In this document: in pieces, positions 12,692 to 26,774 of the stretch
How positions within the stretch are numbered: position 1 is the stretch's first letter
How the letters are laid out: each line of letters starts with the position of its first letter
Source of the DNA: Acidimicrobiales bacterium
GTDB taxonomy: Bacteria; Actinomycetota; Acidimicrobiia; Acidimicrobiales; Aldehydirespiratoraceae
NCBI GenBank assembly: GCA_029263215.1
Contig: JAJCXY010000053.1
Span: 76,417 to 140,416, forward strand
DNA length: 64,000 bases
Direction of reading: 5' to 3'
Position numbers and translations under genes: made by a program
Notes under the pieces: model-generated
What the model saw: only the letters and a program-made list of their open reading frames with translations
What the model was told of the DNA's origin: nothing
Databases searched by the model: none

Positions 12692-13645
12692 TTATCCCGC
12701 GAGCGACTCGGCCCCCGCTTCGGCTGCCTTGATGCCGAGCATGCGGCACACTGCCACCGAGAGCTCGGGCTGGTTCATGGTGTAGAAGTGGAAGTGACGC
12801 ACGCCGTGCTCCACCAACAGGCGACATTGCTCGGCCGCAACGGTGGCGGCAACCATGCGGCGGATTTCGGGCGAGTCGTCGAGGCCGCCGAAGAGGTCGT
12901 ACATCCACGATGGAATGTCGGTGCCGCAGCGTTCGGCGAAGCCGACGAGCTTCGTGAAGTTGGTGACCGGCATGATACCGGCCACGATCGGGGCGCTGAT
13001 CCCGGCCATTCTCACCGTCTCGAACCAGCGCACGAATACATCGGTATCGAAGAAGAACTGGGTGATCGCCCGATCGGCGCCCGCCTCGAACTTTCGTTCG
13101 AGATTCTCGAGATCAGCCGTGGCGCTCGCGGCCTTGGGGTGGATCTCGGGGTAGGCCGCGACCGAGATGTCGAACTGATCACCGTCGGGTCGTCGCCGCA
13201 GACCGGTGACGAGGTCGGCTGCGGTGTGGTAGCCGCCATCGACCGTGCCGTCGCCCTCTCCGGGAGGCGCGTCGCCTCGCAGGGCGACGATTCGGCGCAC
13301 CCCGGCGGCGACATAGGAATCGACAACGGTGTCGACTTCCTCGGCGGTGCTTCCGACGCAGGTGAGGTGGCCCGCAACTTCGAGGTCGGTGCTGGCGGCC
13401 AGCGACTCGATGGTGGTGACCGTGCGCTCCTGGGTGGTGCCGCCGGCTCCGTAGGTGACCGAAACGAAACTTGGCTCGAGAGGCGCGAGTTCGGCGATGC
13501 ATGAATCGAGTTGGTTGTTGGCGGCACTCGACCCGGGAGGGAAGAACTCAAAGGAAACTTCGAGCTCGGGCCGTATCGGAGTGGTGAGCCAGGGGCGGCG
13601 TGCGAGTCGGGCCGCTGTCTCCCGATCGGAGGTCTGGATGGTCAT
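12692..13645 (-). CDS. metF: 5,10-methylenetetrahydrofolate reductase
   Basis: ORF 12692..13789, with the start placed at MTIQTSD (ATG 13645), an ATGA overlap with the upstream gene. Contains EVSFEFFPP, SVTYGAGG, and HFHFYTMNQ near the C-terminus. Confidence 0.92.
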   Translation of the reverse strand: MTIQTSDRETAARLARRPWLTTPIRPELEVSFEFFPPGSSAANNQLDSCIAELAPLEPSFVSVTYGAGGTTQERTVTTIESLAASTDLEVAGHLTCVGSTAEEVDTVVDSYVAAGVRRIVALRGDAPPGEGDGTVDGGYHTAADLVTGLRRRPDGDQFDISVAAYPEIHPKAASATADLENLERKFEAGADRAITQFFFDTDVFVRWFETVRMAGISAPIVAGIMPVTNFTKLVGFAERCGTDIPSWMYDLFGGLDDSPEIRRMVAATVAAEQCRLLVEHGVRHFHFYTMNQPELSVAVCRMLGIKAAEAGAESLAG

Positions 13646-14622
13646 GATGCGGCCTCGAGGGGATAGACGGCGGGTGCGTCGGGTCGTTGGCTGGCGACCC
13701 AGATCGACACGGTGAGCGGGTCGCCATGGGTTTCGATCGGTTTCATGTGGCGAACGTTGAGATCGGTGAGTCCGGCCCCTTCGCACCACGCGGTGATCTC
13801 TTCAGTGGTGAAACCGAGGCGGCGGTGGGAGAACTCGGTGCGGAGTGACTCGAGCTGATGAGGTCCGAAGTCGACGATGACCAGACGACCGAAGGGGCGA
13901 AGCGTGCGCCCCGCCTGGGCGATTGCCTCGGCGGGATCGTCGAGGAAGTGCAGGACGTGGTGCAGCACGGCTGTGTCGACCGATCCCGGCCGGCGTTCGA
14001 TGTCGTAGGCGCTTCCGTGTTGCACCGAACAGTGACGGAGCTGGGCCTGGTCGAGTCGACTACGAGCGATGTTGAGCATCTTGGAGCTGAGATCGAGGCC
14101 GACCCCGCGGCGAATCGAAGGGGCGAAGATCTCCAGGACGCGGCCGGTGCCGGTGCCGATGTCGAGGAGTTCGTCGATGTCGAGGTCGGCGACGGCTTCG
14201 AGCATCGCGGCTTCGACGGCGTCGTCGGCGACATGGAGTTGGCGCATGTCGTCCCAGCTGGTGGCGATCGATTCGAAGTAGCGCTCCGCGGCTTCGGCCC
14301 GTTCGGTGCGCACCACGGCGAGCCGATGAGCATCGCGTTCGAAGATCGGGTCGGTCTGGTCGACGAGGGCAAGTACCGCGGTGGTCAGCTCGTGGCCCGT
14401 GCCGGTGACCGCTGGGCGGTAGAAGGCGCTGGTGCCTTCCGCGTGGCGGACCAGAAGCTCGGCATCGCACAGGAGCTTGAGGTGGCGACTGACGCGGGGT
14501 TGGGACTGGTCGAGCACCCGACACAGTTCGCCGACGGTGAGTTCGGTGCGATCGAGGGCGGCCAGGATGCGTAGTCGGGTGGATTCGGCGGTGGCCCTGA
14601 GTGCCTCGAGTAGTTCCTGCAT
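13642..14622 (-). CDS. ArsR-type HTH fused to a SAM-methyltransferase-like domain (SahR-like regulator of methionine/C1 metabolism)
   Basis: 326-aa ORF. The N-terminus has ESTRLRILAAL...VGELCRVLDQSQPRVSRHLKLL (ArsR wHTH). The C-terminus has methyltransferase motif I, LLDIGTGTGR. It is translationally coupled to metF. Confidence 0.85.
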   Translation of the reverse strand: MQELLEALRATAESTRLRILAALDRTELTVGELCRVLDQSQPRVSRHLKLLCDAELLVRHAEGTSAFYRPAVTGTGHELTTAVLALVDQTDPIFERDAHRLAVVRTERAEAAERYFESIATSWDDMRQLHVADDAVEAAMLEAVADLDIDELLDIGTGTGRVLEIFAPSIRRGVGLDLSSKMLNIARSRLDQAQLRHCSVQHGSAYDIERRPGSVDTAVLHHVLHFLDDPAEAIAQAGRTLRPFGRLVIVDFGPHQLESLRTEFSHRRLGFTTEEITAWCEGAGLTDLNVRHMKPIETHGDPLTVSIWVASQRPDAPAVYPLEAAS

Positions 14623-14741: not shown

Positions 14742-15392
14742 GTGCCGTCGACACCTCTAGTGGGCGCGTCCCCGAGCCTCACCCTGGAGCCCCTGCTTCA
14801 TCGCCTCTTCACCGCCCATGTGGACTCAGTGTTCAACGTCGCCTATCGAGTCACCTGGAATCGCGCCGATGCCGAGGATGTGGTGCAGTCGAGCTTCTTG
14901 AAGGTCATCGTCAACCACGGCCAACTCGATGATCCGTCTCGCGAGCGGGCCTGGGTGCTTCAGGTTGCCTACCGCGAGGCAATCGCCGTGTTGCGCAGGC
15001 GACGCGAGCAACCGATCGATCCCTCCGTGCTTCCCGACTCGCCCTCCGCTGATCCATCGCCCGACGAGGCCGTCGTGCTCTCCGACCTGGCCCGGATGAT
15101 CAGCGGAGCATTCGAGCGCATGACTGCTCCCGAACGTATGGCCGTGGTCTTGCGCGACGTCGAGGGGCTGGCCATGAAGGAGGTCGCGTCGGTGATGGGC
15201 CTCGGGCTGTCGGCGGCCAAGATGAGGGTGCATCGGGGCCGCCAAACTCTCCGCATCCTGCTCGAATCGGAAGGACTGCGAGGAACGCACTCGCCTCTAC
15301 GCGGCGATGGTGGCGGATCTCACCGGGCCGCGCTGACCGCGTCGATGAGTTTATCGACGCTCGGCCGGTCGTCGGGGCCTTCGCCCCAGTAA
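14742..15392 (+). CDS. ECF-type sigma-70 family RNA polymerase sigma factor
   Basis: 216-aa ORF with a GTG start. Region 2 is VFNVAYRVTWNRADAEDVVQSSFLKV. Region 4 is ERMAVVLRDVEGLAMKEVASVMGLGLSAAKMRVHRGRQTL. A ~40-aa low-complexity tail overlaps the convergent gene. Confidence 0.85.
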   Translation: MPSTPLVGASPSLTLEPLLHRLFTAHVDSVFNVAYRVTWNRADAEDVVQSSFLKVIVNHGQLDDPSRERAWVLQVAYREAIAVLRRRREQPIDPSVLPDSPSADPSPDEAVVLSDLARMISGAFERMTAPERMAVVLRDVEGLAMKEVASVMGLGLSAAKMRVHRGRQTLRILLESEGLRGTHSPLRGDGGGSHRAALTASMSLSTLGRSSGPSPQ

Positions 15393-16887: not shown

Positions 16888-17940
16888 TCAGCTGGTGGTG
16901 GGAAGACCAGCACTGATCCAGGCATCGATTCCGCCGTCGATCTCGGTGACGTCGGTGAACCCGAGGCTGCGCATCAGAGCGAGGGTCTGGCCGCTGCGGT
17001 TTCCCGACCGGCAGTAGAGGAGGTAGGGCTCGTCGGGGTCGAGTTCGGCCAACCGATCGGCGAAGTCGTCGCGGTAGAAGTCGAGCATGGTTGCGTCTTC
17101 GAGATGGCCTGCGTCGAACTCCTCCTGGGTGCGCACGTCGAGCACGACCAGGTTGTCGGGGGGGTTGGAGTGGAGTTCGGCGGCGACGCTGGCCGACACC
17201 GTCTCGAGGCTCTGGGTGTCGGCGGGGGCTGCGTCTTCTGAGGGGGAGTCGCCGACGGTTGCTGCGGCTGCATCGACGAAGGCGCCGAACTGATCGATGG
17301 AGATCTCACCGGCCCAGCGCGTGAGGACCGACCCGTCGGCGCCTACCGCCACCCCGAACGGGAAGCTACCCAGTCCGTAACCCTGGGCGAGTGCGCCGTC
17401 GTCGCTGTCGACGATGATGGTGCCGGTGAAGCCCTCTTCTTCAAACCACGCAGACGGGGGGTAGTTGGTGGCCGTCGTCTCGACGCTGGTGCTCACCGCC
17501 AAGATCTCGACCCCATTGGGGACGTCGTTGGCCGCCATCCAGTCGACGACCTTAGGGAGCTCGACCTGGCAATGGGGACACCAGTGGGCGAGGAACAGGA
17601 TCACCCGCGCCACCCCGTCGTCGGGACGGATCTGCACCCGGTCGCCGTCGAGGGTCTGGGCGATGAGCTGAGGGGCCGCCAGTCCGGCGGCGTCGTTGGG
17701 ACTCGCGAACCGGGGAAGCGGGTCGCCGATCGTCTCCGCGAAAGCGGTCTCCTCCACGTTGGAGGCAGGAGCGCTGTCGCCTCCCGATGACAGGGCGATG
17801 GCCACGATAGCTGCCAGCAGGATTATGGCTCCGACCCACAACACCGGCGATTGCAGGATGGTGCGGTTGGGGGAGTCCTCCGCGGCGGCGACCCGTGGTG
17901 GGATGCGGCCGTGTTTTGAGGTGTTGGGACGATTGCTCAC
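16888..17940 (-). CDS. Membrane-anchored TlpA/ResA-like thioredoxin fused to a C-terminal rhodanese domain
   Basis: ORF 16888..18063, with the start placed at GTG 17940 (a GTGA overlap with the dsbB-like stop). It has one N-terminal TM helix (VLWVGAIILLAAIVAIAL), the thioredoxin motif HWCPHC, and a rhodanese active-site loop YCRSGNRSG. Confidence 0.8.
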   Translation of the reverse strand: MSNRPNTSKHGRIPPRVAAAEDSPNRTILQSPVLWVGAIILLAAIVAIALSSGGDSAPASNVEETAFAETIGDPLPRFASPNDAAGLAAPQLIAQTLDGDRVQIRPDDGVARVILFLAHWCPHCQVELPKVVDWMAANDVPNGVEILAVSTSVETTATNYPPSAWFEEEGFTGTIIVDSDDGALAQGYGLGSFPFGVAVGADGSVLTRWAGEISIDQFGAFVDAAAATVGDSPSEDAAPADTQSLETVSASVAAELHSNPPDNLVVLDVRTQEEFDAGHLEDATMLDFYRDDFADRLAELDPDEPYLLYCRSGNRSGQTLALMRSLGFTDVTEIDGGIDAWISAGLPTTS

Positions 17941-18449
17941 GTTTGCTCCTGGGGGGAAGAACGGATGGAGAGGCTGGTGAGGGCGATGATCAGCCCGAAG
18001 GAGATGGCGGCCATTTGGGGAATGGTCATCCAGCCGAATGCCTCGACCCAACGACCCGTGCAAGGGTTGGTTATGTCACATGCTGAGCTCTGCTCGGGGA
18101 ACCACTGGAGTTGGACGTGGTAGAGCGAGATCACCAGTCCGATCGAGGCGATGATCCGCACATAGGGCATGGGGCTGAGATCGCGGCGCAGGGCCGCTAT
18201 CGGCAGGATCACAGCCAGTGGGTACATGGCGATGCGCTGGTACCAGCAGAACTCACAAGGCAGGAAGTCGGCGAACTCCGAGAAGTAGAGACTTCCGAGG
18301 GTGGCGCCGACAGCCACCAGGGCCGCGATCTCGTGGGCGGACGGGGAGACCCGGGCCCGGAGGTCTGGAACCGAGAGCGCTGCGATCGTGCCGGCCGCGC
18401 CTCCCAGCAGGAGTAGCCCGAAGAATGTCGCCATCGTCGCGGAGGACAT
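17937..18449 (-). CDS. Disulfide bond formation protein B family (BdbC/DsbB-like)
   Basis: 170-aa ORF with four predicted TM segments. It carries the signature LPCEFCWYQRIAMYP and a second Cys pair in the later loop (SSACDITNPC). Confidence 0.8.
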   Translation of the reverse strand: MSSATMATFFGLLLLGGAAGTIAALSVPDLRARVSPSAHEIAALVAVGATLGSLYFSEFADFLPCEFCWYQRIAMYPLAVILPIAALRRDLSPMPYVRIIASIGLVISLYHVQLQWFPEQSSACDITNPCTGRWVEAFGWMTIPQMAAISFGLIIALTSLSIRSSPQEQT

Positions 18450-18456
18450 TCCGCTA

Positions 18457-18468
18457 TTGTACGTACAA
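18457..18468. promoter_or_regulatory. Perfect 12-bp palindrome TTGTACGTACAA, a candidate GntR/HutC-type operator
   Basis: Lies in the 69-bp divergent intergenic region between the dsbB-like gene and the GntR gene. It fits the GT-N-AC core typical of GntR-family sites. Confidence 0.55.
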
Positions 18469-18518: not shown

Positions 18519-19277
18519 ATGTCACTCACGCCCTTGGATCGTGGTAGCCCGATGCCCTTGTGGGCCCAGCTCGAAGTCGAGCTCCGCAAGCGTCTCGAGG
18601 CCGGAGAGTTCGACCTGGGCTTTCCCACCGACCTCCAGCTCACGACCAGCTACGAGGTGAGTCGCCACACCGCTCGCGAAGCGGTCCGCCAGTTGAGCGC
18701 CAGCGGCCTACTCACGCGTGAGCGGGGGCGGGGCACGGTGGTGAACCGCTCAGAATTCGAGCAGTCCCTGGGCGCTCTCTACAGCCTGTTCGAGTCGGTC
18801 GAGGCGGCGGGTGTCGAACAGGCCAGCGAGGTACTCAGGCTCGAAGTCGTCACCGACCCGGCGGCGGCCGCGAACCTCGGCGTGTCGGTGTCAGCCAAGC
18901 TGGTACTCCTCGAGCGACTTCGGCTCGCGGGAGGGGCGCCGCTGGCGGTCGACAGGGCCTGGCTGCCCCAGAAACTCGCCAAACCGCTGCTGAAGGTCGA
19001 TTGGAGCCGTACCGCTCTCTACGCGGAGCTCGCCGACATGGGTGCACCGGTGCCCAACCAGGGCTGGGAGCGGCTGACTCCGGTCATGCCGGGGGCGGTG
19101 GATCGAGAGCTGCTCGAACTCGACGAGAACGAAGCGGCATTCTTCCTCGAACGGCAAGGCAATCGCGACGGTACTCCGGTCGAGTGGCGCACCACGGTGA
19201 TCAGGGGTGATCGGTACCGCTTCGTCACCGATTGGACCACGGGAGAGCAAAGCCAGCTGAGGCCCACGGCTGTTTGA
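18519..19277 (+). CDS. GntR-family transcriptional regulator (HutC/UTRA subfamily)
   Basis: 252-aa ORF. The N-terminal wHTH is PLWAQLEVELRKRLEAGEF...LPTDLQLTTSYEVSRHTAREAVRQL. The C-terminal domain is UTRA-like. Confidence 0.85.
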   Translation: MSLTPLDRGSPMPLWAQLEVELRKRLEAGEFDLGFPTDLQLTTSYEVSRHTAREAVRQLSASGLLTRERGRGTVVNRSEFEQSLGALYSLFESVEAAGVEQASEVLRLEVVTDPAAAANLGVSVSAKLVLLERLRLAGGAPLAVDRAWLPQKLAKPLLKVDWSRTALYAELADMGAPVPNQGWERLTPVMPGAVDRELLELDENEAAFFLERQGNRDGTPVEWRTTVIRGDRYRFVTDWTTGEQSQLRPTAV

Positions 19278-19298: not shown

Positions 19299-19544
19299 TC
19301 AACTCAACTTCAAGAAGAGTTTCTCGAGTTCGGCGGGGTCGGACTCGGAGTCGCGGTCGGCGAGGGCCGCGGCCATGAGTCGGAAGCCCACTCGATCGAG
19401 GGCCCCCTTGGCCGCAGCCAGTTGGGTGACGATGTCGCGACATTCTTCACCTTCGGCCACGAGCCGTTGGATGCCTCGGATCTGACCTTCGAGTCGACGG
19501 AGGCGCTTGATCACGTCGGCGTTGGTTTCCTCGGGGAACTGCAT
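19299..19544 (-). CDS. CsoR/RcnR/CstR-family (DUF156) metal- or persulfide-sensing type repressor with an atypical x-C-x-x sensor fingerprint
   Basis: ORF 19299..19658, with the start placed at MQFPEETNADVIKRLRRLEGQIRGIQRLV (ATG 19544). The family core is RLRRxEGQxRG. It has a single Cys (C35) and no His anywhere in the 81 aa. Confidence 0.8.
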   Translation of the reverse strand: MQFPEETNADVIKRLRRLEGQIRGIQRLVAEGEECRDIVTQLAAAKGALDRVGFRLMAAALADRDSESDPAELEKLFLKLS

Positions 19545-19553
19545 GGCGAGAGC

Positions 19554-19592
19554 ATACCTCCGGGGGTATTCGGAGCATACCTCGGGGGGTAT
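19554..19592. promoter_or_regulatory. Two tandem CsoR-type operators: ATACCTCCGGGGGTAT (19554..19569) and ATACCTCGGGGGGTAT (19577..19592)
   Basis: Both fit the ATACC-N6-GGTAT GC-cored inverted repeat. They sit in the divergent csoR-like/sulP intergenic region, inside a direct repeat GAGCATACCTC(C/G)GGGGGTAT. Confidence 0.7.
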
Positions 19593-19593
19593 G

Positions 19594-19622
19594 TTGACTA
19601 ATCCTCTTAATGTCCGTATATT
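19594..19622 (+). promoter_or_regulatory. Sigma-70-type promoter TTGACT-17 nt-TATATT driving a leaderless SulP mRNA
   Basis: The -35 box is at 19594..19599 and the -10 box at 19617..19622. The ATG of sulP is at 19630, 7 nt after the -10 box, with no room for an SD sequence. Confidence 0.6.
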
Positions 19623-19629
19623 CGTACAT

Positions 19630-21387
19630 ATGTCCTTCGCCTCCCGGTACCTCCCCATCCTGTCCTGGGCACCGGGATACCAGCGCTCCGATCTACGCAG
19701 CGATCTCGGCGCCGGGCTAACCGTCGGCGCGATGCTGGTCCCCCAGGCGATGGCCTACGCACTGCTCGCCGGACTTCCCCCCGAAGTAGGCCTTTACGCC
19801 GCAACCGTCCCGGTGATCATCTACGCCTTCTTCGGAACCTCCCGCCAACTCGCGGTCGGGCCGGTGGCGATCGTCTCCCTTCTCACCGCATCGGCCCTTG
19901 CCCCCCTGGTGGAGGAAGGCACCGCGGGCTACATCGGGGCCGCGGCCCTGCTCGCCCTGATGGTTGGCATCATCCACATCGTGCTCGGTGTGGGCCGCCT
20001 CGGATTCCTCGTCAACTTCCTGTCGCATTCAGTGCTGGTGGGGTTCACCGCCGCCGCGGCGCTGATAATCGGCTTCTCCCAGGTGAAGCACCTCCTGGGG
20101 ATCTCACTCGAACGAAAGGATCACTTCTACGAGACCGTGATCGCGGTGGGAGAGAATCTCGCCGATGCCCACGCAGTCACCGTGATCATCGGGTTGGGCT
20201 CGCTGGCCGTCCTGTTCACCCTGAAGCGACTGGTGCCTCAAATACCTGCCGCTCTGGTGGTGGTGGTGGGGTCGATCCTGGCCGTCGAACTCCTCCGTCT
20301 CGAACGTGAAGGGGTGTCGGTGGTTGGCGACATCCCCGACTCCTTGCCGGCCTTCGGCCTCCCCGACTTCGATGGCTCGATGATCAGCAACCTCGCCACC
20401 ACCGCCCTGGTGATCACCCTGGTGGGGTTCATGGAGTCCATCGCGGTGGCCAAGGTGTATGCCCGCCGTCATCGCTACGACATCGATGCCAACCGTGAAC
20501 TCATCGGGTTGGGAGCAGCCAACGTGGCCGCCGGCCTGTTCGGCGGCTACCCGGTGACCGGTGGGTTCTCTCGCACCGCGGTGAACGACACCGCCGGCGC
20601 TCGAACCCCAATGGCGTCACTCATCACCGCCGCCATCGTCTTGATGACGATCGCCTTCTTCACCCCGCTTCTCAGTTCCCTTCCCAACGCCGCACTCGGC
20701 GCGATCATCATCATGGCGGTGATCGGACTCATCGACGTGAAGGAGATGCGCCACATCATCGCGGTGAAGAAGTCGGACCTGATCGGTCTGGGAGTGGCCT
20801 TCGGAGCCACCCTCGTGCTCGGCATCGAGTTGGGTATAGGGGTGGCGGTGGTGGCATCGATGCTCGTCGTGTTCGCCCGCATGTCGAGCCCCCATGTGGC
20901 CACACTCGGCCACGTCAAGGGCACGACGAGCTACCGAAACGTCGAACGCTTCCCGGAAGTACAGATGGTCGAGGGAATGACCATCGTCCGAATCGACGCG
21001 GCCCTGTCATTCGCCAATGCCGCTTCGACAAAGCGCATCCTCCTCGCCTACGCCGACGCGATCGAATCGACCCCGCGAACCCTGCTGCTCGACGCGTCGG
21101 GTATCAACGATCTCGATGCCACCGGCGCCGAGATGCTGAGTGAGGTGATGCCCGACCTGGAAGACCGCGGTGTTGCCCTGCACCTGACCGACATAAAGGG
21201 TCCGGTGCGTGATGTCCTCCACCGGGCAGGGATCTGGGAGCAACTCGAAGGCCGTATTCATGCATCCACCCACGACGCCGTAAAAGCGATCATCGAGTTG
21301 AGATCCGCCCCCGGTGATCAGCGCCGATCGGGCATCGACGAAGGCCTCGGCGAGGCCTGGGCCGAGAACGGTCTGCTCGATGCCTGA
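19630..21387 (+). CDS. SulP-family anion transporter with a C-terminal STAS domain
   Basis: ORF 19507..21387, with the start placed at MSFASRYLPILSWAPGYQRSDLRSDLGAGLTVGAMLVPQAMAYA (ATG 19630). This is the canonical SulP N-terminus. A STAS domain is present at the C-terminus. Confidence 0.9.
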   Translation: MSFASRYLPILSWAPGYQRSDLRSDLGAGLTVGAMLVPQAMAYALLAGLPPEVGLYAATVPVIIYAFFGTSRQLAVGPVAIVSLLTASALAPLVEEGTAGYIGAAALLALMVGIIHIVLGVGRLGFLVNFLSHSVLVGFTAAAALIIGFSQVKHLLGISLERKDHFYETVIAVGENLADAHAVTVIIGLGSLAVLFTLKRLVPQIPAALVVVVGSILAVELLRLEREGVSVVGDIPDSLPAFGLPDFDGSMISNLATTALVITLVGFMESIAVAKVYARRHRYDIDANRELIGLGAANVAAGLFGGYPVTGGFSRTAVNDTAGARTPMASLITAAIVLMTIAFFTPLLSSLPNAALGAIIIMAVIGLIDVKEMRHIIAVKKSDLIGLGVAFGATLVLGIELGIGVAVVASMLVVFARMSSPHVATLGHVKGTTSYRNVERFPEVQMVEGMTIVRIDAALSFANAASTKRILLAYADAIESTPRTLLLDASGINDLDATGAEMLSEVMPDLEDRGVALHLTDIKGPVRDVLHRAGIWEQLEGRIHASTHDAVKAIIELRSAPGDQRRSGIDEGLGEAWAENGLLDA

Positions 21388-21952
21388 GTCGACGTGGCAG
21401 TCCCTGCTCGCAGCCCACGAGACGGCCCGCCGGCCAAACGTCGGCGAGGTTCCCGACCACCGGCCCGGCGCCGCGGTCCTTTGTTGTTCCGATGCACGAG
21501 TGCCGCCCTCAGCGGTGTTCGGCCAGTCCCACGGTGATCTTTTTGTGGTCCGCAACGCCGGCAACCTCGCCACTCCGGTTGCTGTAGCGAGTCTGGATTA
21601 CGCGGTGTCGGACCTCGGCGTCGATCTGGCCATCGTGATGGGACACACCCAATGTGGAGCAGTCAACGCGGCTCTGAACGACACCTCTGAACCTCACCTC
21701 GAGCCCGTTGTCGGACCCATCCTGGAATTGCTGGCCGACGAACCCGATCTCGACGCGGGTCAGTTGATCGAGAAGAACATCCTCAGCGCGCTCGACACGC
21801 TGGCCGCTTCCGGCGGACCCGTCGGCGAGGGCATTCGGGTAGGCGACGTACAGATCGTCGGCGCCCTCTACGACCTTGCGACCGATTCGGTCGTTGAAAT
21901 CTCGGCCCCCACCGACACCCGAGAACCCAGACACCTTTCGGAGGCACAATGA
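21380..21952 (+). CDS. Beta-class carbonic anhydrase
   Basis: ORF 21314..21952, with the start placed at MPESTWQSLL (ATG 21380), an 8-nt overlap with sulP. Zinc ligand motifs are CSDARV and HTQCGAV. Confidence 0.85.
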   Translation: MPESTWQSLLAAHETARRPNVGEVPDHRPGAAVLCCSDARVPPSAVFGQSHGDLFVVRNAGNLATPVAVASLDYAVSDLGVDLAIVMGHTQCGAVNAALNDTSEPHLEPVVGPILELLADEPDLDAGQLIEKNILSALDTLAASGGPVGEGIRVGDVQIVGALYDLATDSVVEISAPTDTREPRHLSEAQ

Positions 21953-22542
21953 CCACAACCTCATTTCCCGCGGCCGACACGATCGGAGCAGCAGAACTCG
22001 CACAGCTCATCGCCGCCCACCCTGAGCTCCGGGTACTCGATGTGCGCACCGGCGCAGAGTTCGAGGCCGTGCACATCCCCGGTTCCTACAATGTGCCGCT
22101 CGACACCCTCGGTGAGCACCTGAACGACCTGGCCGACGTGGATCATCCGGTCGTGTTGGTGTGCCAGTCTGGCGGTCGAGCCACCAATGCTCACAAGAGC
22201 CTGCTCGGAGCCGGCAAGGAGACTCTGCACATCCTCGATGGCGGGATGGGGGCATGGCAGACGATGGGCGGCGACGTGGTACGGACGTCGAGCGAGCGGT
22301 GGGCGCTCGACCGGCAGGTCCGATTGTTGGCCGGTGGTCTGATTGCTCTAGCGGTGGCCGCGAGCGTGCTGGCAACGTGGACGAGGTGGGTCGCGCTCTT
22401 CGTGGGCGGAGGCCTGTTTGTCTCCGCGGTGACCAATAGTTGCGCGATGGCTGCCGTTCTCGGCAAGCTCCCCTACAACCGGGGGAAGGGCTGCAACATC
22501 GCTGAAGTACTCGAAGGGCTGAACGGGGGAGTGGCGTCATGA
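21949..22542 (+). CDS. Rhodanese domain fused to a DUF2892-type membrane domain (YgaP-like sulfurtransferase)
   Basis: 197-aa ORF with the active-site loop CQSGGRA. The C-terminal hydrophobic domain (RLLAGGLIALAVAASVL...FVGGGLFVSAVTNSCAM) is typical of DUF2892. It overlaps the upstream stop (ATGA). Confidence 0.8.
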   Translation: MTTTSFPAADTIGAAELAQLIAAHPELRVLDVRTGAEFEAVHIPGSYNVPLDTLGEHLNDLADVDHPVVLVCQSGGRATNAHKSLLGAGKETLHILDGGMGAWQTMGGDVVRTSSERWALDRQVRLLAGGLIALAVAASVLATWTRWVALFVGGGLFVSAVTNSCAMAAVLGKLPYNRGKGCNIAEVLEGLNGGVAS

Positions 22543-22838
22543 ATCAGCATCAGGATCATCCCGTCACCAACTACGCCGACCTGATGGTGGGCGACGCCCA
22601 GCTGGTCGACGTTCGCGAGCCTCATGAGGTGGCCCAGGGCACCCTCCCCGATGCGGTCAACATTCCTCTCGGCGACCTCGCCAATCGCGTGGGGGAGCTC
22701 GATACCGATCGCCGGGTTGTGTTGCTCTGTCGCAGTGGTGGTCGCAGCGCCAACGCGGCCCAGTTCCTCACCAGGTCGGGGTTCGGTGATGTTTTCAACC
22801 TTGCTGGCGGAATGTTGGTGTTCGCCGCCCAGGGTTGA
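22539..22838 (+). CDS. Single-domain rhodanese sulfurtransferase
   Basis: 99-aa ORF with the active-site loop CRSGGRS. It overlaps the upstream stop (ATGA). Confidence 0.85.
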   Translation: MNQHQDHPVTNYADLMVGDAQLVDVREPHEVAQGTLPDAVNIPLGDLANRVGELDTDRRVVLLCRSGGRSANAAQFLTRSGFGDVFNLAGGMLVFAAQG

Positions 22839-22861
22839 CGCAATACCCCTAGGGGTATAAT
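22835..22861 (+). promoter_or_regulatory. Promoter TTGACG-15 nt-TATAAT with an embedded perfect CsoR-type palindrome ATACCCCTAGGGGTAT (22843..22858)
   Basis: A 16-bp perfect palindrome overlaps the -10 hexamer (22856..22861), 36 nt upstream of the ATG at 22897. The downstream AATGTCCGTA and GTACATAT strings are shared with the sulP promoter. Confidence 0.7.
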
Positions 22862-22896
22862 GTCCGTACATATAGTTTCGAAAGGGAATCTCGACG

Positions 22897-24273
22897 ATGA
22901 AGTTCACCCAGTACTACCTCGACTGCCTCTCGCAGGCGTCCTACCTGATCGGCGATGAGACCACCGGTCGCGCGGTGGTGGTCGATCCACGCCGCGATAT
23001 CGACGAATACGTCCGTGATGCCGCGGCCGAGGGACTCCAGATCGAGCTGATCCTCGAGACCCACTTCCACGCCGACTTCCTGTCCGGACATCTCGAGCTC
23101 GCGGCCGCAACCGGAGCGGCGATCGGCGTTTCGTCCATCGCCGAAGCCGAGTTCGAAGTGCGCGGTTTCGCCGATGGCGAGCGTTACTCCCTCGGTGAGG
23201 TCGAACTGGAGATACTCCACACCCCCGGCCATACCCCCGAGTCGATCAGCATCGTGGTGCGCGAGAACGCAGCCGACGAGACCCCGTGGGGTGTACTCAC
23301 CGGCGACACCCTCTTCATCGGCGATGTCGGCCGGCCCGACCTGTTGGCGTCGATCGGATTCACCCGCGACGAACTCGCCGACAAGCTGTACGACAGTCTC
23401 CACAACAAGCTCATGCCACTGCCCGACGACACCAGGGTGTTTCCCGCTCACGGCGCCGGATCAGCCTGCGGGAAAAACCTCTCCACCGAGACCTCCTCCA
23501 CCATGGGCGAACAGCGCGAAACCAACTACGCCCTGCTCGCTCCAGACAAGCAGTCGTTCATCGACTTGGTCACCGAGGGCCAGCCTCCCGCACCGGGGTA
23601 CTTCGTCTACGACGCCATCCTCAATCGCAAGGATCGGCCCCTGCTCGATGAGAAGACGCCGCCGGCGGCCCTCGACCTCGAAACCGTCGAGCGGATGATC
23701 GCCGATGGCGCAATGCTGATCGACGGGCGAGATCCCGAACACTTCGCCCCCGGTCATCTGGTGGGCGCCGTCAACGTCGGCCTCGAAGGCCGCTACGCCG
23801 AATTCGCCGGATCGGTGGTTCCGAGCGACGTCGACATTGTTCTCATGGTCGACCCCGGACGCGAAACCGAGGCCCGCAATCGGCTCGCTCGCATCGGCTT
23901 CGACCGGGTACTCGGGTTCCTGGAGGACCCCCTGCAGGTAATGGTCGACCATCCCGACAAGGTCGCTCACGGCTCGCGCCTCACGGTGCCCGAACTCGTC
24001 GAGCGGATCTCGTCGGTCGAGGGACTCCAACTGGTCGATATTCGAAACCCCGGCGAAGTTGCGTTGGGAATACTCGATGGAGCGCTCACCGTGCCGGTTG
24101 GTCAACTCCCGGCTCGTATCGACGAACTCGATCCTAAGGCCCCCACGGTTGTCTACTGCGCGGGGGGTTACCGCTCATCGGTGGCGGCCAGCTACATGCG
24201 AAGGGCCGGATTCTCCGATGTGTCTGACCTCGTGGGCGGCTATGGCGCCTGGCTCGAGATGGTCCCGGTCTGA
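22897..24273 (+). CDS. MBL-fold persulfide dioxygenase fused to two rhodanese-like domains (CstB-like)
   Basis: 458-aa ORF. The metallo-beta-lactamase motif is ETHFHADF...HTPGHTPES. There are two C-terminal rhodanese-like domains, the last with the active loop YCAGGYRSS. Confidence 0.88.
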   Translation: MKFTQYYLDCLSQASYLIGDETTGRAVVVDPRRDIDEYVRDAAAEGLQIELILETHFHADFLSGHLELAAATGAAIGVSSIAEAEFEVRGFADGERYSLGEVELEILHTPGHTPESISIVVRENAADETPWGVLTGDTLFIGDVGRPDLLASIGFTRDELADKLYDSLHNKLMPLPDDTRVFPAHGAGSACGKNLSTETSSTMGEQRETNYALLAPDKQSFIDLVTEGQPPAPGYFVYDAILNRKDRPLLDEKTPPAALDLETVERMIADGAMLIDGRDPEHFAPGHLVGAVNVGLEGRYAEFAGSVVPSDVDIVLMVDPGRETEARNRLARIGFDRVLGFLEDPLQVMVDHPDKVAHGSRLTVPELVERISSVEGLQLVDIRNPGEVALGILDGALTVPVGQLPARIDELDPKAPTVVYCAGGYRSSVAASYMRRAGFSDVSDLVGGYGAWLEMVPV

Positions 24274-24373: not shown

Positions 24374-25222
24374 ATGTTCCCCAAGAAGATCTCACTGTCC
24401 TCCCTCGTTCTCGCTGTCGCTCTTGTCGCAGCCGCTTGCGGCAGCGACGATCCGGTCGCCACCGACGACTCAGGCACCGACATGGAGTTGGTCGACGATG
24501 CCTCGATGGACGGCGACGAGATGGACGACCATGACGCGGACGCCATGGACGACCACGACATGGACGACCAGGACATGGAGGAGGGTGACAGTCACGAGCA
24601 CGATCACGAGGACGGCGTCACATCGGAGTGGCCCAGCGAGTTCGATGTCCCCACGGTCAACGTCGATGCGGTCGCCGAAGAGGGCGGCGTGGTGGAGCTA
24701 TCGATCGGGATCACAGGCTTCAGCATCGTGAGTGGTGACACCAGCGACGCTGGGGCCACCGAAGGCCATGTCCATGTGTATGTCGACGGCGTCGACTTGG
24801 GGATGTTCTTCGAAAGCGACGTTCGCCTCACCGGCGTTTCGCCCGGGCCCCATCAGCTGATGGTTGAGCTCGCAGCGGTCGACCATTCGGTGCTCGCAGT
24901 CGACGGCTCCCCCTTGCGGTACATGTCCGAGATCGTTGTGCCCGGAGAGGTCGTTGAGGCCGACGTGGTGATCGATGTGGTGATCGATGAATCCGGCGCT
25001 GTCGATGAGTTGATCGAAGCTGAAGCCTCAATCGGTGATCTGGTGGAGATCCGGGTCGAATCCGCAGTGTCGGAGGAACTCCACGTGCACGCCTACGACC
25101 ACGTCCTTGATGTGGGGGGCGACGGCGTGGCCGTCTTGAGGTTCGAGGCGGAGATTCCCGGCGTGTTCGAGGTGGAACTCGAGGGTTCAGGTCGTCAGGT
25201 GATCCAGCTCACCGTCTCGTAG
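24374..25222 (+). CDS. Lipoprotein with an Asp/His/Met-rich N-terminal region, a DUF4399-like HVHVYVDG segment and a cupredoxin-like C-terminal domain. It is a putative metal-binding protein.
   Basis: ORF 24320..25222, with the start placed at MFPKKISLSSLVLAVALVAAAC (lipobox) and AGGAG upstream. Contains MDGDEMDDHDADAMDDHDMDDQDMEEGDSHEHDHEDG. Confidence 0.65.
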   Translation: MFPKKISLSSLVLAVALVAAACGSDDPVATDDSGTDMELVDDASMDGDEMDDHDADAMDDHDMDDQDMEEGDSHEHDHEDGVTSEWPSEFDVPTVNVDAVAEEGGVVELSIGITGFSIVSGDTSDAGATEGHVHVYVDGVDLGMFFESDVRLTGVSPGPHQLMVELAAVDHSVLAVDGSPLRYMSEIVVPGEVVEADVVIDVVIDESGAVDELIEAEASIGDLVEIRVESAVSEELHVHAYDHVLDVGGDGVAVLRFEAEIPGVFEVELEGSGRQVIQLTVS

Positions 25223-25244
25223 CCGCTCTGCATACAGTGATGGG

Positions 25245-26774
25245 GTGCCCCGGCCGTCGATGCGTTTCGCCCCACCCAGCACCGGCGACCTGATCGCCGG
25301 CGTCTCGGTGGCCCTCGTGGCCATTCCCCAGTCCCTGGCCTACGCGGAACTTGCCGGGCTCCCTGCCCAGTACGGCCTGTTCGCCTCCGCCCTGCCTTCG
25401 CTCATTGCCGCCGCGTTCGTGTCGTCCAGGTATCTGCAGACCGGCCCGGTGGCGCTCACCGCGCTGCTCACCTTCGGCGCGCTTGAGAGCCTCGCTGAGC
25501 CCGCGTCCACCAGCTACATCGAACTGGCCGCGCTCCTAGCCCTGATGGTTGGGCTCATGCGGGTCGGCCTCGGTCTGCTGCGCCTCGGCAGGGTGGCCTA
25601 CCTGCTGTCTGAGCCGGTCCTGCTCGGCTTCACCAGCGGCGCGGCGGTGTTGATCCTTTCGTCTCAGCTCCCCAAGGTCTTCGACGTGGCGCCCGCCGGC
25701 GACGGTGTGTTGCAGGACGCGTTTCAGGCGCTCGTCCACCCCGGCGATTGGCACTGGGAGGCACTCGCGTTCTCCGCCCTCACCCTGATAGCGGTGTTCG
25801 GCGGCCGTCGCGTCCACCGACTGTTCCCCGGGGTCCTGCTGGCAGTCGTTGCCGGCGTGCTCATCAGTGGTGGCACCGGCTACGACGGTTCAACCGTGGG
25901 CGAACTCGATGGGGGATTCGTTTCCCTCGGGTTTGATTTCCCGTGGGATTCAGCGGGCGACCTCGCTATCCCTGCACTCGCCATCGCGCTTGTCGGGTTT
26001 GCCGAGCCGTCGTCGATTGCCCGCACCTTTGCGGCCGAGGATCGTCTTCCCTGGAACGCCAACCGAGAGATGTTCAGCCAGGGTGTGGCCAACCTCGCCG
26101 CCGGGATCTCAGGTGCGTTCCCCGTAGGAGGCTCGTTCTCGAGGAGCTCCCTCAACCGCCTGGCCGGCGCCACCAGCCCCTGGGCCGGCGCGATCACGGG
26201 GGGATTCGTGCTTCTCGCTCTCCCGCTGACGCCGATCTTGGAGGATCTGCCTCGGGCGATCCTCGGTGCCATCGTGGTCGGCGCCGTTCTCAAGCTCATC
26301 AAGCTTCGTGAGCTCTACGACCTGATCGCCCAATCGGGCCTCCAGGCAGTCGTCGGTATCGGCACGTTCGTCGCGACGCTGGCCTCAGCCCCCCGAGTGG
26401 AGCGCGGTGTGCTCATAGGCATCGGTCTGGCGCTGGCCGCTCATCTCTACCGCGAGATGTCGGTGTCCACCGAAAGCAAGAGGAGTGGCGACACGCTCAC
26501 CGTGTCACCCCAGGGTGTGCTCTGGTTCGCGGCCGTGCCCCAGATCGAACGGCTCATTCGCAACGAACTCGCCAATGCGCCCGACCTCGACCGGGTCGTG
26601 ATCGACCTCGGTGCGGTCGGGCGACTCGACTACTCGGGGGCCGCAGCGCTCGGCCGGATCATCGAGGAACTGCGCCAGGCGGGTGTGGAGGTGAATGTCA
26701 CAAACGTCAAGCCGGGATCAGAGCGCAGCGTGCGCGCGCACCTCGACGGTAACCCAGACCCGCCACCCGACTGA
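25245..26774 (+). CDS. SulP-family anion transporter with a STAS domain (second copy)
   Basis: 509-aa ORF with a GTG start. Contains DLIAGVSVALVAIPQSLAYAELAGLP, and a C-terminal STAS domain (VVIDLGAVGRLDYSGAAAL). Confidence 0.88.
   Translation: MPRPSMRFAPPSTGDLIAGVSVALVAIPQSLAYAELAGLPAQYGLFASALPSLIAAAFVSSRYLQTGPVALTALLTFGALESLAEPASTSYIELAALLALMVGLMRVGLGLLRLGRVAYLLSEPVLLGFTSGAAVLILSSQLPKVFDVAPAGDGVLQDAFQALVHPGDWHWEALAFSALTLIAVFGGRRVHRLFPGVLLAVVAGVLISGGTGYDGSTVGELDGGFVSLGFDFPWDSAGDLAIPALAIALVGFAEPSSIARTFAAEDRLPWNANREMFSQGVANLAAGISGAFPVGGSFSRSSLNRLAGATSPWAGAITGGFVLLALPLTPILEDLPRAILGAIVVGAVLKLIKLRELYDLIAQSGLQAVVGIGTFVATLASAPRVERGVLIGIGLALAAHLYREMSVSTESKRSGDTLTVSPQGVLWFAAVPQIERLIRNELANAPDLDRVVIDLGAVGRLDYSGAAALGRIIEELRQAGVEVNVTNVKPGSERSVRAHLDGNPDPPPD

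What the first reader, a model, noticed from the sequence alone, without database searches (positions are those of the whole stretch)
19299..24273. Sulfur-transfer cluster behind three ATACC-N6-GGTAT operators, controlled by a CsoR-family protein that lacks every known second sensing ligand
The operators:
- Three closely related GC-cored inverted repeats occur only at the two promoters of this cluster.
- They are ATACCTCCGGGGGTAT (19554..19569), ATACCTCGGGGGGTAT (19577..19592) and the perfect palindrome ATACCCCTAGGGGTAT (22843..22858).
- The last one overlaps a TATAAT -10 box.
- They match the classical operator architecture of the CsoR/CstR family.

The controlled genes:
- A SulP anion transporter, a beta-carbonic anhydrase, a YgaP-like rhodanese-DUF2892 membrane protein and a single-domain rhodanese.
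- From the second promoter, an MBL persulfide dioxygenase fused to two rhodanese-like domains.
- This gene set corresponds functionally to sulfide/persulfide detoxification operons such as cst.
- Here SulP sits where a TauE-type sulfite or thiosulfate exporter would be expected, and a carbonic anhydrase is translationally coupled to it.

The regulator:
- The 81-aa regulator has the family core RLRRLEGQIRG, only one Cys (C35), and no His at all.
- The positions that provide His/Cys in CsoR (C-H-C), RcnR (H-C-H-H) and CstR (C...C) are Ala, Arg or Asp.
- Neither Cu(I) coordination nor an inter-protomer Cys-Cys polysulfide bridge as described for CstR is possible as such.
- Its sensing chemistry is therefore undefined.
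Basis: partly seen in the sequence, partly recalled or inferred. Interest (0 to 1): 0.65.

Follow-up and report, generated by a model that had tools for sequence, protein, structure and literature searches.

The report
One-cysteine persulfide repressor and its regulon
This is the Acidimicrobiia version of a known actinobacterial circuit that removes reactive "sulfane" sulfur, but its CsoR/CstR-type repressor has lost the second cysteine that every studied relative needs, and a second, previously unnoticed operator points to co-control by a neighbouring GntR regulator.

Summary
Three exact ATACC-N6-GGTAT sites occur in the 64 kb, where shuffles give none. They sit on the promoters of an 81-aa PF02583 regulator, of sulP–β-CA–ygaP-like–rhodanese, and of a CstB-type persulfide dioxygenase.

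The 81-aa start is real: there is a fixed 9-nt spacing from operator to start codon and a leaderless layout in 35 of 48 related loci. Cys35 is the only Cys and there is no His.

The same regulator, operator and gene set recur in dozens of Acidimicrobiales genomes. The system is the counterpart of the characterised Streptomyces coelicolor ScCsoR circuit, which has the same ATACCn6GGTAT site and controls PDO, rhodanese and a sulfite exporter.

Some orthologues that keep the regulon, and all outgroups examined, still carry Cys64. The single-Cys state is therefore a derived loss of the resolving Cys.

The most likely mechanism is per- or polysulfidation of Cys35 alone releasing the repressor. This is inferred, not shown.

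New here: a second conserved palindrome, ATGTACGTACAT, lies at both promoters and upstream of the adjacent HutC-type gntR. This implies dual control and extends the island to a dsbB-like/redoxin–rhodanese operon.

Verdict: a new variant of a known kind, of moderate interest.

The parts
16888..18063 (-). Redoxin/AhpC-TSA domain fused to a C-terminal rhodanese. The true start is uncertain: the 5' end of this ORF overlaps the dsbB-like gene. Probably the second gene of the dsbB-like operon.
   Evidence: Pfam PF00578/PF08534 plus PF00581. Rhodanese hits at the equivalent position in related loci.
17937..18449 (-). DsbB-family disulfide oxidoreductase, divergent from gntR.
   Evidence: Pfam PF02600. 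NCBIfam NF002849.
18457..18468 (.). Perfect palindrome TTGTACGTACAA between the dsbB-like gene and gntR. Candidate GntR operator. On the minus strand it contains TACAAT, followed by 6 nt and then the dsbB-like ATG.
   Evidence: 4 hits against 0.55 expected. The same motif lies upstream of gntR homologues in related loci.
18519..19277 (+). GntR-family regulator of the HutC subfamily (winged HTH plus UTRA effector domain).
   Evidence: Pfam PF00392 + PF07702. PDB NagR/YvoA and DasR at about 1e-23. A GntR homologue was found in about 30 of the related loci.
19299..19544 (-). 81-aa CsoR/CstR-family repressor with a single Cys (C35), no His, and a leaderless start.
   Evidence: PF02583, 70.6 bits. 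491 homologues, mostly 81 aa. AF2 model pLDDT 85.9 with three helices; best PDB matches are CsoR, CstR, InrS and FrmR. Start confirmed.
19551..19556 (-). -10-like hexamer TATGCT of the regulator promoter. It overlaps operator 1, and 6 nt follow before the ATG.
   Evidence: Direct reading. A TATNNT hexamer is found at the same place in most of the 48 loci.
19554..19569 (.). Operator 1, ATACCTCCGGGGGTAT.
   Evidence: Its position is conserved 9 nt from the regulator start.
19577..19592 (.). Operator 2, ATACCTCGGGGGGTAT, abutting the sulP -35. A tandem second site is seen only in the closest relatives (L001-L004).
19594..19622 (+). sulP promoter: TTGACT, 17 nt, TATATT. The ATG lies 7 nt after the -10, so the transcript is probably leaderless.
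   Evidence: The layout is conserved in related loci.
19610..19629 (.). Two overlapping copies of the second palindrome (ATGTCCGTATAT and ATATTCGTACAT), covering the sulP -10 and transcription start.
   Evidence: 20 of 38 sulP upstream regions at 1 mismatch or fewer.
19630..21387 (+). SulP-family anion transporter with a STAS domain.
   Evidence: PF00916 + PF01740. TIGR00815, 511 bits, above cutoff; below cutoff for DauA and BicA.
21380..21952 (+). Beta-class carbonic anhydrase. Its start overlaps the sulP stop.
   Evidence: PF00484. Closest PDB entries are M. tuberculosis beta-CA 1ym3/2a5v at 6e-19; COS and CS2 hydrolases reach only about 1e-5.
21949..22542 (+). Rhodanese fused to a YgaP-like membrane domain (ATGA overlap with the CA gene).
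   Evidence: PF00581 + PF11127.
22539..22838 (+). Single-domain rhodanese (ATGA overlap with the previous gene). Its stop codon lies inside the -35 of the next promoter.
   Evidence: PF00581. Direct reading.
22835..22871 (+). PDO promoter block: TTGACG (22835-22840), operator 3 ATACCCCTAGGGGTAT (22843-22858), TATAAT (22856-22861), second palindrome ATGTCCGTACAT (22860-22871).
   Evidence: Of 45 PDO upstream regions, 39 carry the operator, 36 the second palindrome and 32 both.
22897..24273 (+). [quoted passage not shown]
   Evidence: PF00753 + PF00581 x2. Full-length matches to 3tp9 (1e-86) and 3r2u (6e-61).
24374..26774 (+). Possible extension of the PDO operon: a secreted acidic, His-rich DUF6130-like protein (24374-25222) and a second SulP (25245-26774). 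Membership of the regulon is not shown.
   Evidence: Pfam. The same order PDO, DUF6130-like, SulP2 is seen in L003, with PDO then DUF6130-like in L004. No operator lies upstream.

Best explanation
**What it is.** The region is a sulfane-sulfur (persulfide/polysulfide) homeostasis island of an Acidimicrobiia bacterium. It is the counterpart of the Streptomyces coelicolor ScCsoR circuit and of the Firmicute cst operon.

**Repression (inferred from sequence and comparison).**
- The 81-aa CsoR-family repressor is inferred to bind the 16-bp ATACC-N6-GGTAT sites, as a tetramer by family analogy.
- One site overlaps the -10 of the repressor's own leaderless promoter, which gives autoregulation.
- One site abuts the -35 of the sulP promoter.
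- One site fills the spacer and -10 of the PDO promoter.
- Together they hold down sulP, beta-CA, ygaP-like, rhodanese and the CstB-type persulfide dioxygenase.

**Induction (inferred).**
- When sulfane sulfur rises, the nucleophilic Cys35 at the N-terminus of helix alpha2 is converted to a persulfide or polysulfide, or to a mixed polysulfide with a low-molecular-weight thiol.
- This monothiol modification alone lowers DNA affinity.
- The resolving Cys (position 64) that CstR and ScCsoR carry has been lost in this lineage.

**Enzymes and transport (inferred).**
- The induced enzymes move and oxidise the sulfane sulfur to sulfite or thiosulfate.
- SulP is proposed to export the product. The coupled carbonic anhydrase may service a bicarbonate or proton counter-flux.

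**Second layer of control (inferred).** The neighbouring HutC-type GntR regulator is proposed to bind the palindrome ATGTACGTACAT. That palindrome overlaps the transcription start regions of sulP, the PDO gene and the divergent gntR / dsbB-like-redoxin-rhodanese promoters.

**Shown here:** the sequence features, their statistics, and their conservation across genomes. **Not shown:** DNA binding, the chemistry at Cys35, the transport substrates, and the GntR-palindrome pairing.
For: **Operators and architecture.**
- Three exact sites, none expected by chance.
- In 52 of 53 regulator, 37 of 38 sulP and 39 of 45 PDO upstream regions from related genomes the same operator is present at a fixed position.
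- The operator-to-start spacing is 9 nt in 35 of 48 loci.

**Family assignment.**
- PF02583 hit.
- CsoR-fold model with Cys35 at the start of alpha2.
- PDB sequence hits to CsoR, CstR, InrS and FrmR.

**Published precedent.**
- ScCsoR binds ATACCn6GGTAT and represses the PDO, tauE, rhodanese and its own gene.
- It is released by polysulfide, with only Cys37 persulfidated and no Cys-Cys link (PMC7533328).
- In CstRs the N-terminal Cys is the attacking nucleophile.
- S. mitis CstR forms under 5% cross-linked species (PMC8643695).

**Cys35 is under selection.** It is present in 120 of 120 close homologues and in all 82 related loci.

**Derived loss of Cys64.**
- Outgroups and several regulon-linked orthologues keep C64: L028, L030, L040, L044, L054, L058, L059 and L062. 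L031 and L037 have C63.

**Enzymes.** CstB-type PDO; rhodaneses and the YgaP-like protein.

**Second palindrome.**
- Four hits in the window against 0.55 expected, at three promoters.
- Present at 36 of 45 PDO, 20 of 38 sulP and 12 of 25 gntR upstream regions, the remaining gntR regions carrying degenerate half-sites.
Against: - In ScCsoR the C66S mutant was no longer released by polysulfide in EMSA, and the authors call both cysteines indispensable. A protein that naturally lacks that Cys might therefore not respond in the same way.
- Every characterised family member switches through a contact that bridges two protomers: a metal chelate, a polysulfide or a methylene bridge. A monothiol switch has no experimental precedent in this family.
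- No SQR or other obvious persulfide source lies in the window. Ten ORFs of 382-537 aa were scanned and none was an SQR.
- The -35 to -10 spacer of the PDO promoter is only 15 nt.
- The GntR-palindrome pairing rests only on co-location and on an autoregulation-style placement.
- SulP substrate and direction of transport are unknown.
Confidence: 0.6

Rival explanations
1. The single-Cys protein has lost its sensor function and is a passive repressor or co-repressor. Induction is supplied by the HutC-type GntR regulator, whose UTRA domain binds a small-molecule signal, or by changes in repressor level.
For: - The resolving Cys is lost.
- C66 is required for release in ScCsoR.
- A second conserved operator overlaps the same promoters.
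Against: - Cys35 is invariant in 120 of 120 close homologues and in all related loci, while neighbouring loop positions vary freely.
- Several PDO promoters carry the CsoR-type operator without the second palindrome: L010, L021, L065 and L068.
- Autoregulation through an operator on the repressor's own -10 is typical of an inducible repressor.
Confidence: 0.12
2. Cys35 still needs a partner thiol, but the partner is supplied in trans. A persulfidated rhodanese of the cluster, or another protein, forms a mixed di- or polysulfide with Cys35. Sensing would then be a protein-to-protein sulfur relay, not a reaction with free persulfides.
For: - Three rhodanese active sites are encoded in the regulon.
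- Rhodaneses carry persulfides on their active-site Cys (established enzymology).
- A second Cys is needed in ScCsoR.
Against: - No direct evidence supports it.
- Some loci have the regulator next to the PDO gene only: L024 and L026.
- CstR and ScCsoR react directly with small persulfide or polysulfide donors.
Confidence: 0.1
3. The protein senses an electrophile (aldehyde or other) through a link between Cys35 and the N-terminal region of the neighbouring protomer, as FrmR does with Cys35 and Pro2.
For: - The N-terminal M-(Q/R/K)-F-P motif is invariant in the clade.
- FrmR is among the sequence and fold matches.
- A close paralogue in the same genomes sits next to an aldehyde dehydrogenase.
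Against: - Residue 2 is Gln, Arg, Lys or His, not Pro, so the FrmR Pro2 amine is absent.
- The F-P motif is also present in the two-Cys relatives, so it does not compensate for the loss of C64.
- All regulated genes are sulfur-handling genes.
Confidence: 0.05
4. It is a metal sensor (Cu, Ni or Co) like CsoR, RcnR or InrS.
For: Family membership only. NCBIfam gives weak, far-below-cutoff hits to RicR and FrmR.
Against: - One Cys, no His, and Ala at the Y position.
- No copA, copZ or rcnA-type gene was found among the genes annotated around the regulator.
Confidence: 0.02

Closest known systems
Streptomyces coelicolor ScCsoR circuit (SCO0618-0621; Lu et al. 2020, PMC7533328)
   Same: - An actinobacterial CsoR-family repressor with the same 16-bp ATACCn6GGTAT operator.
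- Autoregulation and divergent promoters.
- It controls a type III PDO-rhodanese fusion, a rhodanese and an anion exporter.
- There is no SQR in the circuit.
- Only the N-terminal Cys becomes persulfidated and no Cys-Cys bridge forms.
   Different: - ScCsoR has Cys37 and Cys66, and C66S abolishes release. Here the second Cys is absent.
- The exporter here is SulP (plus a beta-CA) instead of TauE.
- Extra YgaP-like membrane rhodanese.
- A second palindrome and a HutC-type GntR regulator share the promoters.
- SCO0620 could not be fetched, so no direct sequence comparison was made.
CstR of S. aureus, E. faecalis and S. pneumoniae with the cst operon (Luebke 2014; Fakhoury 2021, PMC8643695)
   Same: - CsoR fold, an attacking N-terminal Cys and no Y-position His.
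- A GC-tract inverted-repeat operator.
- Regulon of CstB-type PDO and sulfurtransferases.
- Best PDB relatives include 7mq1-7mq3.
   Different: - The characterised S. mitis cst operator has TAC-N9-GTA. Here, and in ScCsoR, it is TAC-N8-GTA.
- The Asn wedge is replaced by Ala60.
- There is no SQR or CstA in the cluster.
Cu(I)-sensing CsoR (M. tuberculosis, B. subtilis, S. lividans)
   Same: Fold, RLxR DNA-binding motif, and an operator of the type ATACCCC..GGGGTAT (PMC3902906).
   Different: The x-C-H-C ligand set is not present (A60 and R64), and there are no copper efflux genes.
FrmR (E. coli, Salmonella)
   Same: A CsoR-family sensor in which one Cys (C35) is the key nucleophile.
   Different: FrmR needs the Pro2 amine for a methylene bridge. 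Here residue 2 is Gln and the regulon handles sulfur.
YgaV-YgaP (E. coli) and SulP-carbonic anhydrase pairs or fusions (for example M. tuberculosis Rv3273)
   Same: - A membrane rhodanese of the YgaP type sits under a sulfide-responsive repressor.
- SulP and a beta-CA are encoded together.
- Both points come from general knowledge and were not tested here.
   Different: The regulator family differs (ArsR versus CsoR). A SulP-CA pair inside a persulfide regulon has not, to my knowledge, been described.

Membership tests
CsoR/RcnR superfamily (PF02583) | Sequence match to the family profile above its curated cutoff | tested here: met
   70.6 bits against a cutoff of 22.8.
CsoR/RcnR superfamily (PF02583) | Three-helix fold with the conserved Cys at the N-terminus of helix alpha2 (X position) | tested here: met
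   AF2 model, pLDDT 85.9, helices 5-30, 35-62 and 70-80. The top PDB fold matches are all CsoR, CstR, InrS or FrmR, TM 0.6-0.8. The oligomeric state was not modelled.
CsoR/RcnR superfamily (PF02583) | Binds a G/C-tract inverted repeat flanked by TAC/GTA | not testable with these tools
   Sites of this type lie at conserved promoter positions. Binding itself needs EMSA.
CstR / ScCsoR-type persulfide sensors | x-C-x-C dithiol pair (attacking Cys plus resolving Cys on alpha2' or its loop) | tested here: not met
   Only C35 is present. Position 64 is Arg here and variable in the clade. 117 of the 120 closest homologues have C35, A60 and no Cys at 62-66.
CstR / ScCsoR-type persulfide sensors | No His at the Y position | tested here: met
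   A60 is invariant in alignment A1 and is found in 118 of the 120 closest homologues.
CstR / ScCsoR-type persulfide sensors | Genomic neighbourhood of PDO, rhodaneses and a sulfite/thiosulfate exporter | tested here: met
   The exporter candidate is SulP, not TauE.
CstR / ScCsoR-type persulfide sensors | ATACCn6GGTAT operator as defined for ScCsoR | tested here: met
   Three exact sites. Published site.
CstR / ScCsoR-type persulfide sensors | Release from DNA by persulfide or polysulfide | not testable with these tools
   Needs EMSA or anisotropy with donors, plus mass spectrometry.
Cu(I)-sensing CsoR | x-C-H-C ligand set and copA/copZ neighbours | tested here: not met
   No His and a single Cys. 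No copper genes were found in the annotated neighbourhood.
RcnR / InrS Ni-Co sensors | H-C-H-H or H-C-H-C ligand set including an N-terminal His | tested here: not met
   There is no His in the protein.
FrmR formaldehyde sensors | Pro2 N-terminal amine paired with Cys35 | tested here: not met
   Residue 2 is Q, R, K or H. Pro is at position 4.
CstB-type (type III) persulfide dioxygenase | MBL PDO domain, then a Cys-less rhodanese-like domain, then a C-terminal catalytic rhodanese | tested here: met
   Full-length alignments to 3tp9 (1e-86) and 3r2u (6e-61). Two PF00581 stretches. CAGGYR loop read. Activity was not tested.
GntR family, HutC subfamily | N-terminal GntR winged HTH plus C-terminal UTRA domain | tested here: met
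   PF00392 + PF07702. NagR and DasR are the best PDB relatives. All NCBIfam equivalog hits are below cutoff, so the effector is unknown.

The most novel reading that the evidence does not exclude
The Acidimicrobiia clade, with hundreds of orthologues, would be the first natural monothiol sensor in the CsoR superfamily. Modification of one cysteine, with no metal chelate, polysulfide or methylene bridge between protomers, would be enough to switch the tetramer off DNA. It would work together with a HutC-type regulator that reads a second, still unknown sulfur-related signal at the same promoters.
Probability: 0.4. Interest if true: 0.65.

Novelty: new variant of a known kind. Interest (0 to 1): 0.5.

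Why it matters
**The open question it addresses.**
- Every CsoR-family sensor studied so far couples inducer recognition to a link between two protomers.
- Whether that link is required for allostery in the persulfide sensors is unsettled.
- S. mitis CstR barely cross-links. ScCsoR is persulfidated on one Cys only, yet it needs the second Cys in vitro.

**What this clade offers.**
- It is a large natural clade that keeps the operator and the regulon but has discarded the second Cys.
- It is therefore a ready-made test case: does Cys35-SSH alone release DNA, and what replaced the role of the lost Cys?
- Orthologues with and without Cys64 provide natural controls.

**Other consequences.**
- The second palindrome with GntR suggests that sulfane-sulfur homeostasis in these abundant freshwater, soil and wastewater actinobacteria (Ilumatobacteraceae, Microthrix) integrates two signals.
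- The SulP-carbonic anhydrase pair is a candidate sulfite/thiosulfate export module.
- Practically, database gene calls of 85-99 aa for this regulator are artefacts that translate the operator.

Tried and rejected
**Ideas tested and rejected.**
- Longer 119-aa start for the regulator. Rejected on the conserved spacing, the leaderless layout, and in-frame stops or missing upstream starts in 23 of 48 loci. The 'YPxGY' extensions in some database entries are the operator read in frame.
- The beta-CA as a COS or CS2 hydrolase feeding H2S into the system. The best PDB relatives are true carbonic anhydrases at 6e-19, while COS and CS2 hydrolases reach only about 1e-5. Not supported.
- An SQR elsewhere in the window as the persulfide source. 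Ten ORFs of 382-537 aa were scanned and none was an SQR. Smaller ORFs were not scanned.
- The operator as a new length variant. TAC-N8-GTA differs from the N9 of S. lividans CsoR and S. mitis CstR sites. It equals the published ScCsoR site, so it is not new.

**Searches that led nowhere.**
- Placing the clade in the published SSN clusters 6-9. The supplements are not held, and the preprint text has no such passage.
- Literature searches for a single-Cys CsoR/CstR, for a GntR link to PDO operons, and for SulP with CA and PDO returned nothing relevant.
- Naming the source organism or a Streptomyces representative through cluster members returned no names.

**Limits of what was done.**
- The NJ tree of an 81-aa protein is too poorly resolved to count independent losses of Cys64.
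- Only a monomer was modelled, so the distances from Cys35 to the neighbouring protomer could not be measured.

Full report

Yes. The pattern ATACC-N6-GGTAT occurs exactly three times in the 64-kb window, at 19554, 19577 and 22843. It never occurred in 100 dinucleotide-preserving shuffles. Allowing two mismatches adds only background-level hits elsewhere: 9 found against 7.2 expected.

- an 81-aa PF02583 protein on the minus strand (19299-19544);
- SulP + STAS (19630-21387);
- a beta-carbonic anhydrase (21380-21952);
- rhodanese + YgaP-like TM (21949-22542);
- a single rhodanese (22539-22838);
- an MBL protein with two rhodanese-like stretches (22897-24273).

The four genes of the first operon overlap: ATGCCTGA, then ATGA twice. 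The rhd stop codon lies inside the TTGACG -35 of the next promoter. The third operator overlaps TATAAT.

**2. The regulator and its start.**

The 81-aa protein has one Cys (C35) and no His. Against PDB sequences its best relatives are CsoR, CstR, InrS and FrmR. In the alignment to S. pneumoniae CstR, the resolving Cys falls on R64 and the wedge Asn on A60. An AlphaFold2 model (pLDDT 85.9) gives three helices with C35 at the start of alpha2. Its top PDB fold matches are all CsoR-family structures.

It fails on four counts.
- Most of the 491 database homologues are 81 aa.
- In 35 of 48 related loci the start codon lies exactly 9 nt after the operator.
- In most of those loci a TATNNT hexamer overlaps the operator's right arm, and 6 nt follow before ATG or GTG. 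This is the layout of a leaderless transcript.
- 23 of the 48 loci have no alternative in-frame start upstream.

The 85-99-aa database calls begin with '..YPxGY..', which is the operator translated in frame.

**3. Comparative genomics.**

A scan of one genome per species found 416 loci encoding relatives. Nearly all are in Acidimicrobiales: Ilumatobacteraceae, Microthrix and Acidimicrobiaceae. Among the best 80, about 45 show the same arrangement.
- The regulator is divergent from sulP, then (beta-CA), ygaP-like, (rhd), then the PDO gene.
- The operator sits just before the regulator start in 52 of 53 upstream regions.
- It sits before sulP in 37 of 38.
- It sits before the PDO gene in 39 of 45.

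The tandem pair of sites at the divergent promoter is found only in the closest relatives. The PDO matches PDB entries 3tp9 (1e-86) and 3r2u (6e-61) over its whole length. From my own knowledge, 3r2u is the S. aureus CstB-type enzyme. The middle rhodanese-like domain lacks a Cys and the C-terminal one has CAGGYR.

**4. What is already known.**

The closest characterised system is the S. coelicolor ScCsoR circuit (PMC7533328).
- ScCsoR (SCO0620) binds a 16-bp ATACCn6GGTAT site.
- It represses a type III PDO, tauE, a rhodanese and itself.
- It is released by hydrogen polysulfide.
- Only Cys37 was found persulfidated and no Cys-Cys bridge forms.
- Yet the C66S mutant was no longer released.

The Firmicute CstRs instead form C31/C60' di- to tetrasulfide bridges. 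The N-terminal Cys is the attacking nucleophile. In S. mitis CstR fewer than 5% of species cross-link, which the authors link to poor conservation of the resolving Cys in their cluster 10 (PMC8643695). That paper also states that SSN clusters 6-9 of the family are uncharacterised. I could not place this clade because the supplements are not held.

The operators here have TAC-N8-GTA, like ScCsoR's site. This is one base shorter than the TAC-N9-GTA of S. lividans CsoR and S. mitis CstR sites.

**5. The single Cys is a derived loss.**

Of the 120 closest database homologues, 117 have C35, A60 and no Cys at positions 62-66; two of the remaining three differ only at position 60. More distant representatives mostly carry two Cys. 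Among regulators still linked to the PDO and rhodanese genes, several keep Cys64 (L028, L030, L040, L044, L054, L058, L059, L062) or Cys63 (L031, L037).

In a rough NJ tree the two-Cys forms are basal or scattered and the single-Cys forms are nested. The tree is too weak to count events. The loop that carried the Cys is also 4-9 residues shorter in the 81-aa forms.

So this is a CstR/ScCsoR-lineage repressor that kept its operator and regulon after losing the resolving Cys. Cys35 is invariant throughout, which argues that the thiol is still used.

**6. A second operator and a second regulator (not in the finding).**

Both promoters share a further motif, the palindrome ATGTACGTACAT. At 2 mismatches or fewer it has four matches in the window against 0.55 expected.
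- Two overlapping copies cover the sulP -10 and start (19610-19629).
- One lies directly after the PDO TATAAT (22860-22871).
- A perfect TTGTACGTACAA (18457-18468) lies between the adjacent gntR (18519-19277) and a divergent dsbB-like gene.

Across related genomes, the motif at 1 mismatch or fewer is present at 36 of 45 PDO, 20 of 38 sulP and 12 of 25 gntR upstream regions. Most other gntR regions carry degenerate GTMCGGAY half-sites. No gntR upstream region carries the CsoR-type operator.

The GntR protein is a HutC-subfamily member with a UTRA effector domain. Its closest solved relatives are NagR and DasR, and no NCBIfam equivalog reaches cutoff. A GntR homologue lies within 7 kb of the regulator in about 30 of the related loci, in varying positions and orientations.

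The inference is that this GntR binds the palindrome, autoregulates, and co-represses the sulfur genes. It would also control the dsbB-like / redoxin-rhodanese operon. This is classical regulon logic but is untested.

**7. Mechanism proposed.**

See the best explanation. Shown here are the sequence features and their conservation. Inferred are DNA binding, monothiol per- or polysulfidation of Cys35 as the release signal, export of sulfite or thiosulfate by SulP with the CA handling bicarbonate or protons, and GntR binding.

The beta-CA is most similar to true carbonic anhydrases, not COS or CS2 hydrolases. SulP passes the generic TIGR00815 cutoff but not those of DauA or BicA. No SQR was found among ten ORFs of 382-537 aa scanned in the window. 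This parallels the SQR-less Streptomyces circuit, which manages sulfane sulfur and does not oxidise sulfide.

**8. Verdict.**

The system is not a new kind. It is the Acidimicrobiia counterpart of a described actinobacterial circuit with the same operator.

Three things are new:
- the natural, clade-wide absence of the second Cys, which experiments on ScCsoR and CstR treat as necessary;
- the replacement of TauE by SulP with a beta-CA;
- the apparent dual control with a HutC-type regulator.

Interest is moderate (0.5). It offers a clean natural test of whether inter-protomer bridging is needed for allostery in CsoR-family persulfide sensors.

Noticed in passing
window 18457-18468, 19610-19629, 22860-22871: A second conserved palindrome (consensus ATGTACGTACAT) lies at the sulP and PDO promoters and between gntR and the dsbB-like gene. 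It is conserved at the same places in dozens of related genomes and is a candidate operator of the adjacent HutC-type GntR regulator.
   Followed up: yes
window 16888-18449 (-): A dsbB-like gene followed by a redoxin (AhpC/TSA)-rhodanese fusion, divergent from gntR. The palindrome contains TACAAT 6 nt before the dsbB-like ATG, so this gene also looks leaderless. It may be an extracytoplasmic thiol/sulfane-sulfur module tied to the same island.
   Followed up: partly
window 24374-26774 (+): Downstream of the PDO gene lie a secreted protein with a very acidic, His-rich stretch (DDHDADAMDDHDMDDQDMEEGDSHEHDHEDG) and a weak DUF6130 match, followed by a second SulP/STAS transporter. The order PDO, DUF6130-like, SulP2 is kept in L003 (PDO then DUF6130-like in L004). 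No operator lies upstream.
   Followed up: partly
L046-L082 (for example L046 7001-7273); L014 and L056 come from the same MAG: A paralogous 85-90-aa CsoR-family protein (54-62% identical) has C35, C45, H63 and C64. It sits between glucose-6-phosphate isomerase and an aldehyde dehydrogenase. It has its own operator, GATACSGGNRGGGGTAC, about 9 nt before the start. It coexists with the single-Cys regulator in one genome and may be an aldehyde or electrophile sensor.
   Followed up: partly
database proteins P0007, P0016, P0085, P0030: Longer gene calls (85-99 aa) for this regulator start with '..YPxGY..', which is the ATACCCC..GGGGTAT operator translated in frame. This is an annotation artefact.
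   Followed up: yes
L003 (CAXMSE010000103.1): A contig labelled 'uncultured Gammaproteobacteria' carries a 95%-identical regulator and 82-94%-identical PDO, GntR and SulP2 genes in the same order. It is probably a mis-binned Acidimicrobiia contig.
   Followed up: no
window 19544, 19630, 18449: Three genes of the island (the regulator, sulP and the dsbB-like gene) have a -10-like hexamer 6-7 nt before the start codon and no Shine-Dalgarno sequence, suggesting leaderless mRNAs. The PDO and gntR genes have clear GGAGG-type ribosome-binding sites.
   Followed up: partly
window 13642-14622 (-) and 14742-15392 (+): An ArsR-type HTH fused to a SAM-methyltransferase domain lies next to an ECF-type sigma factor. 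It was not linked to the sulfur island by any motif.
   Followed up: no
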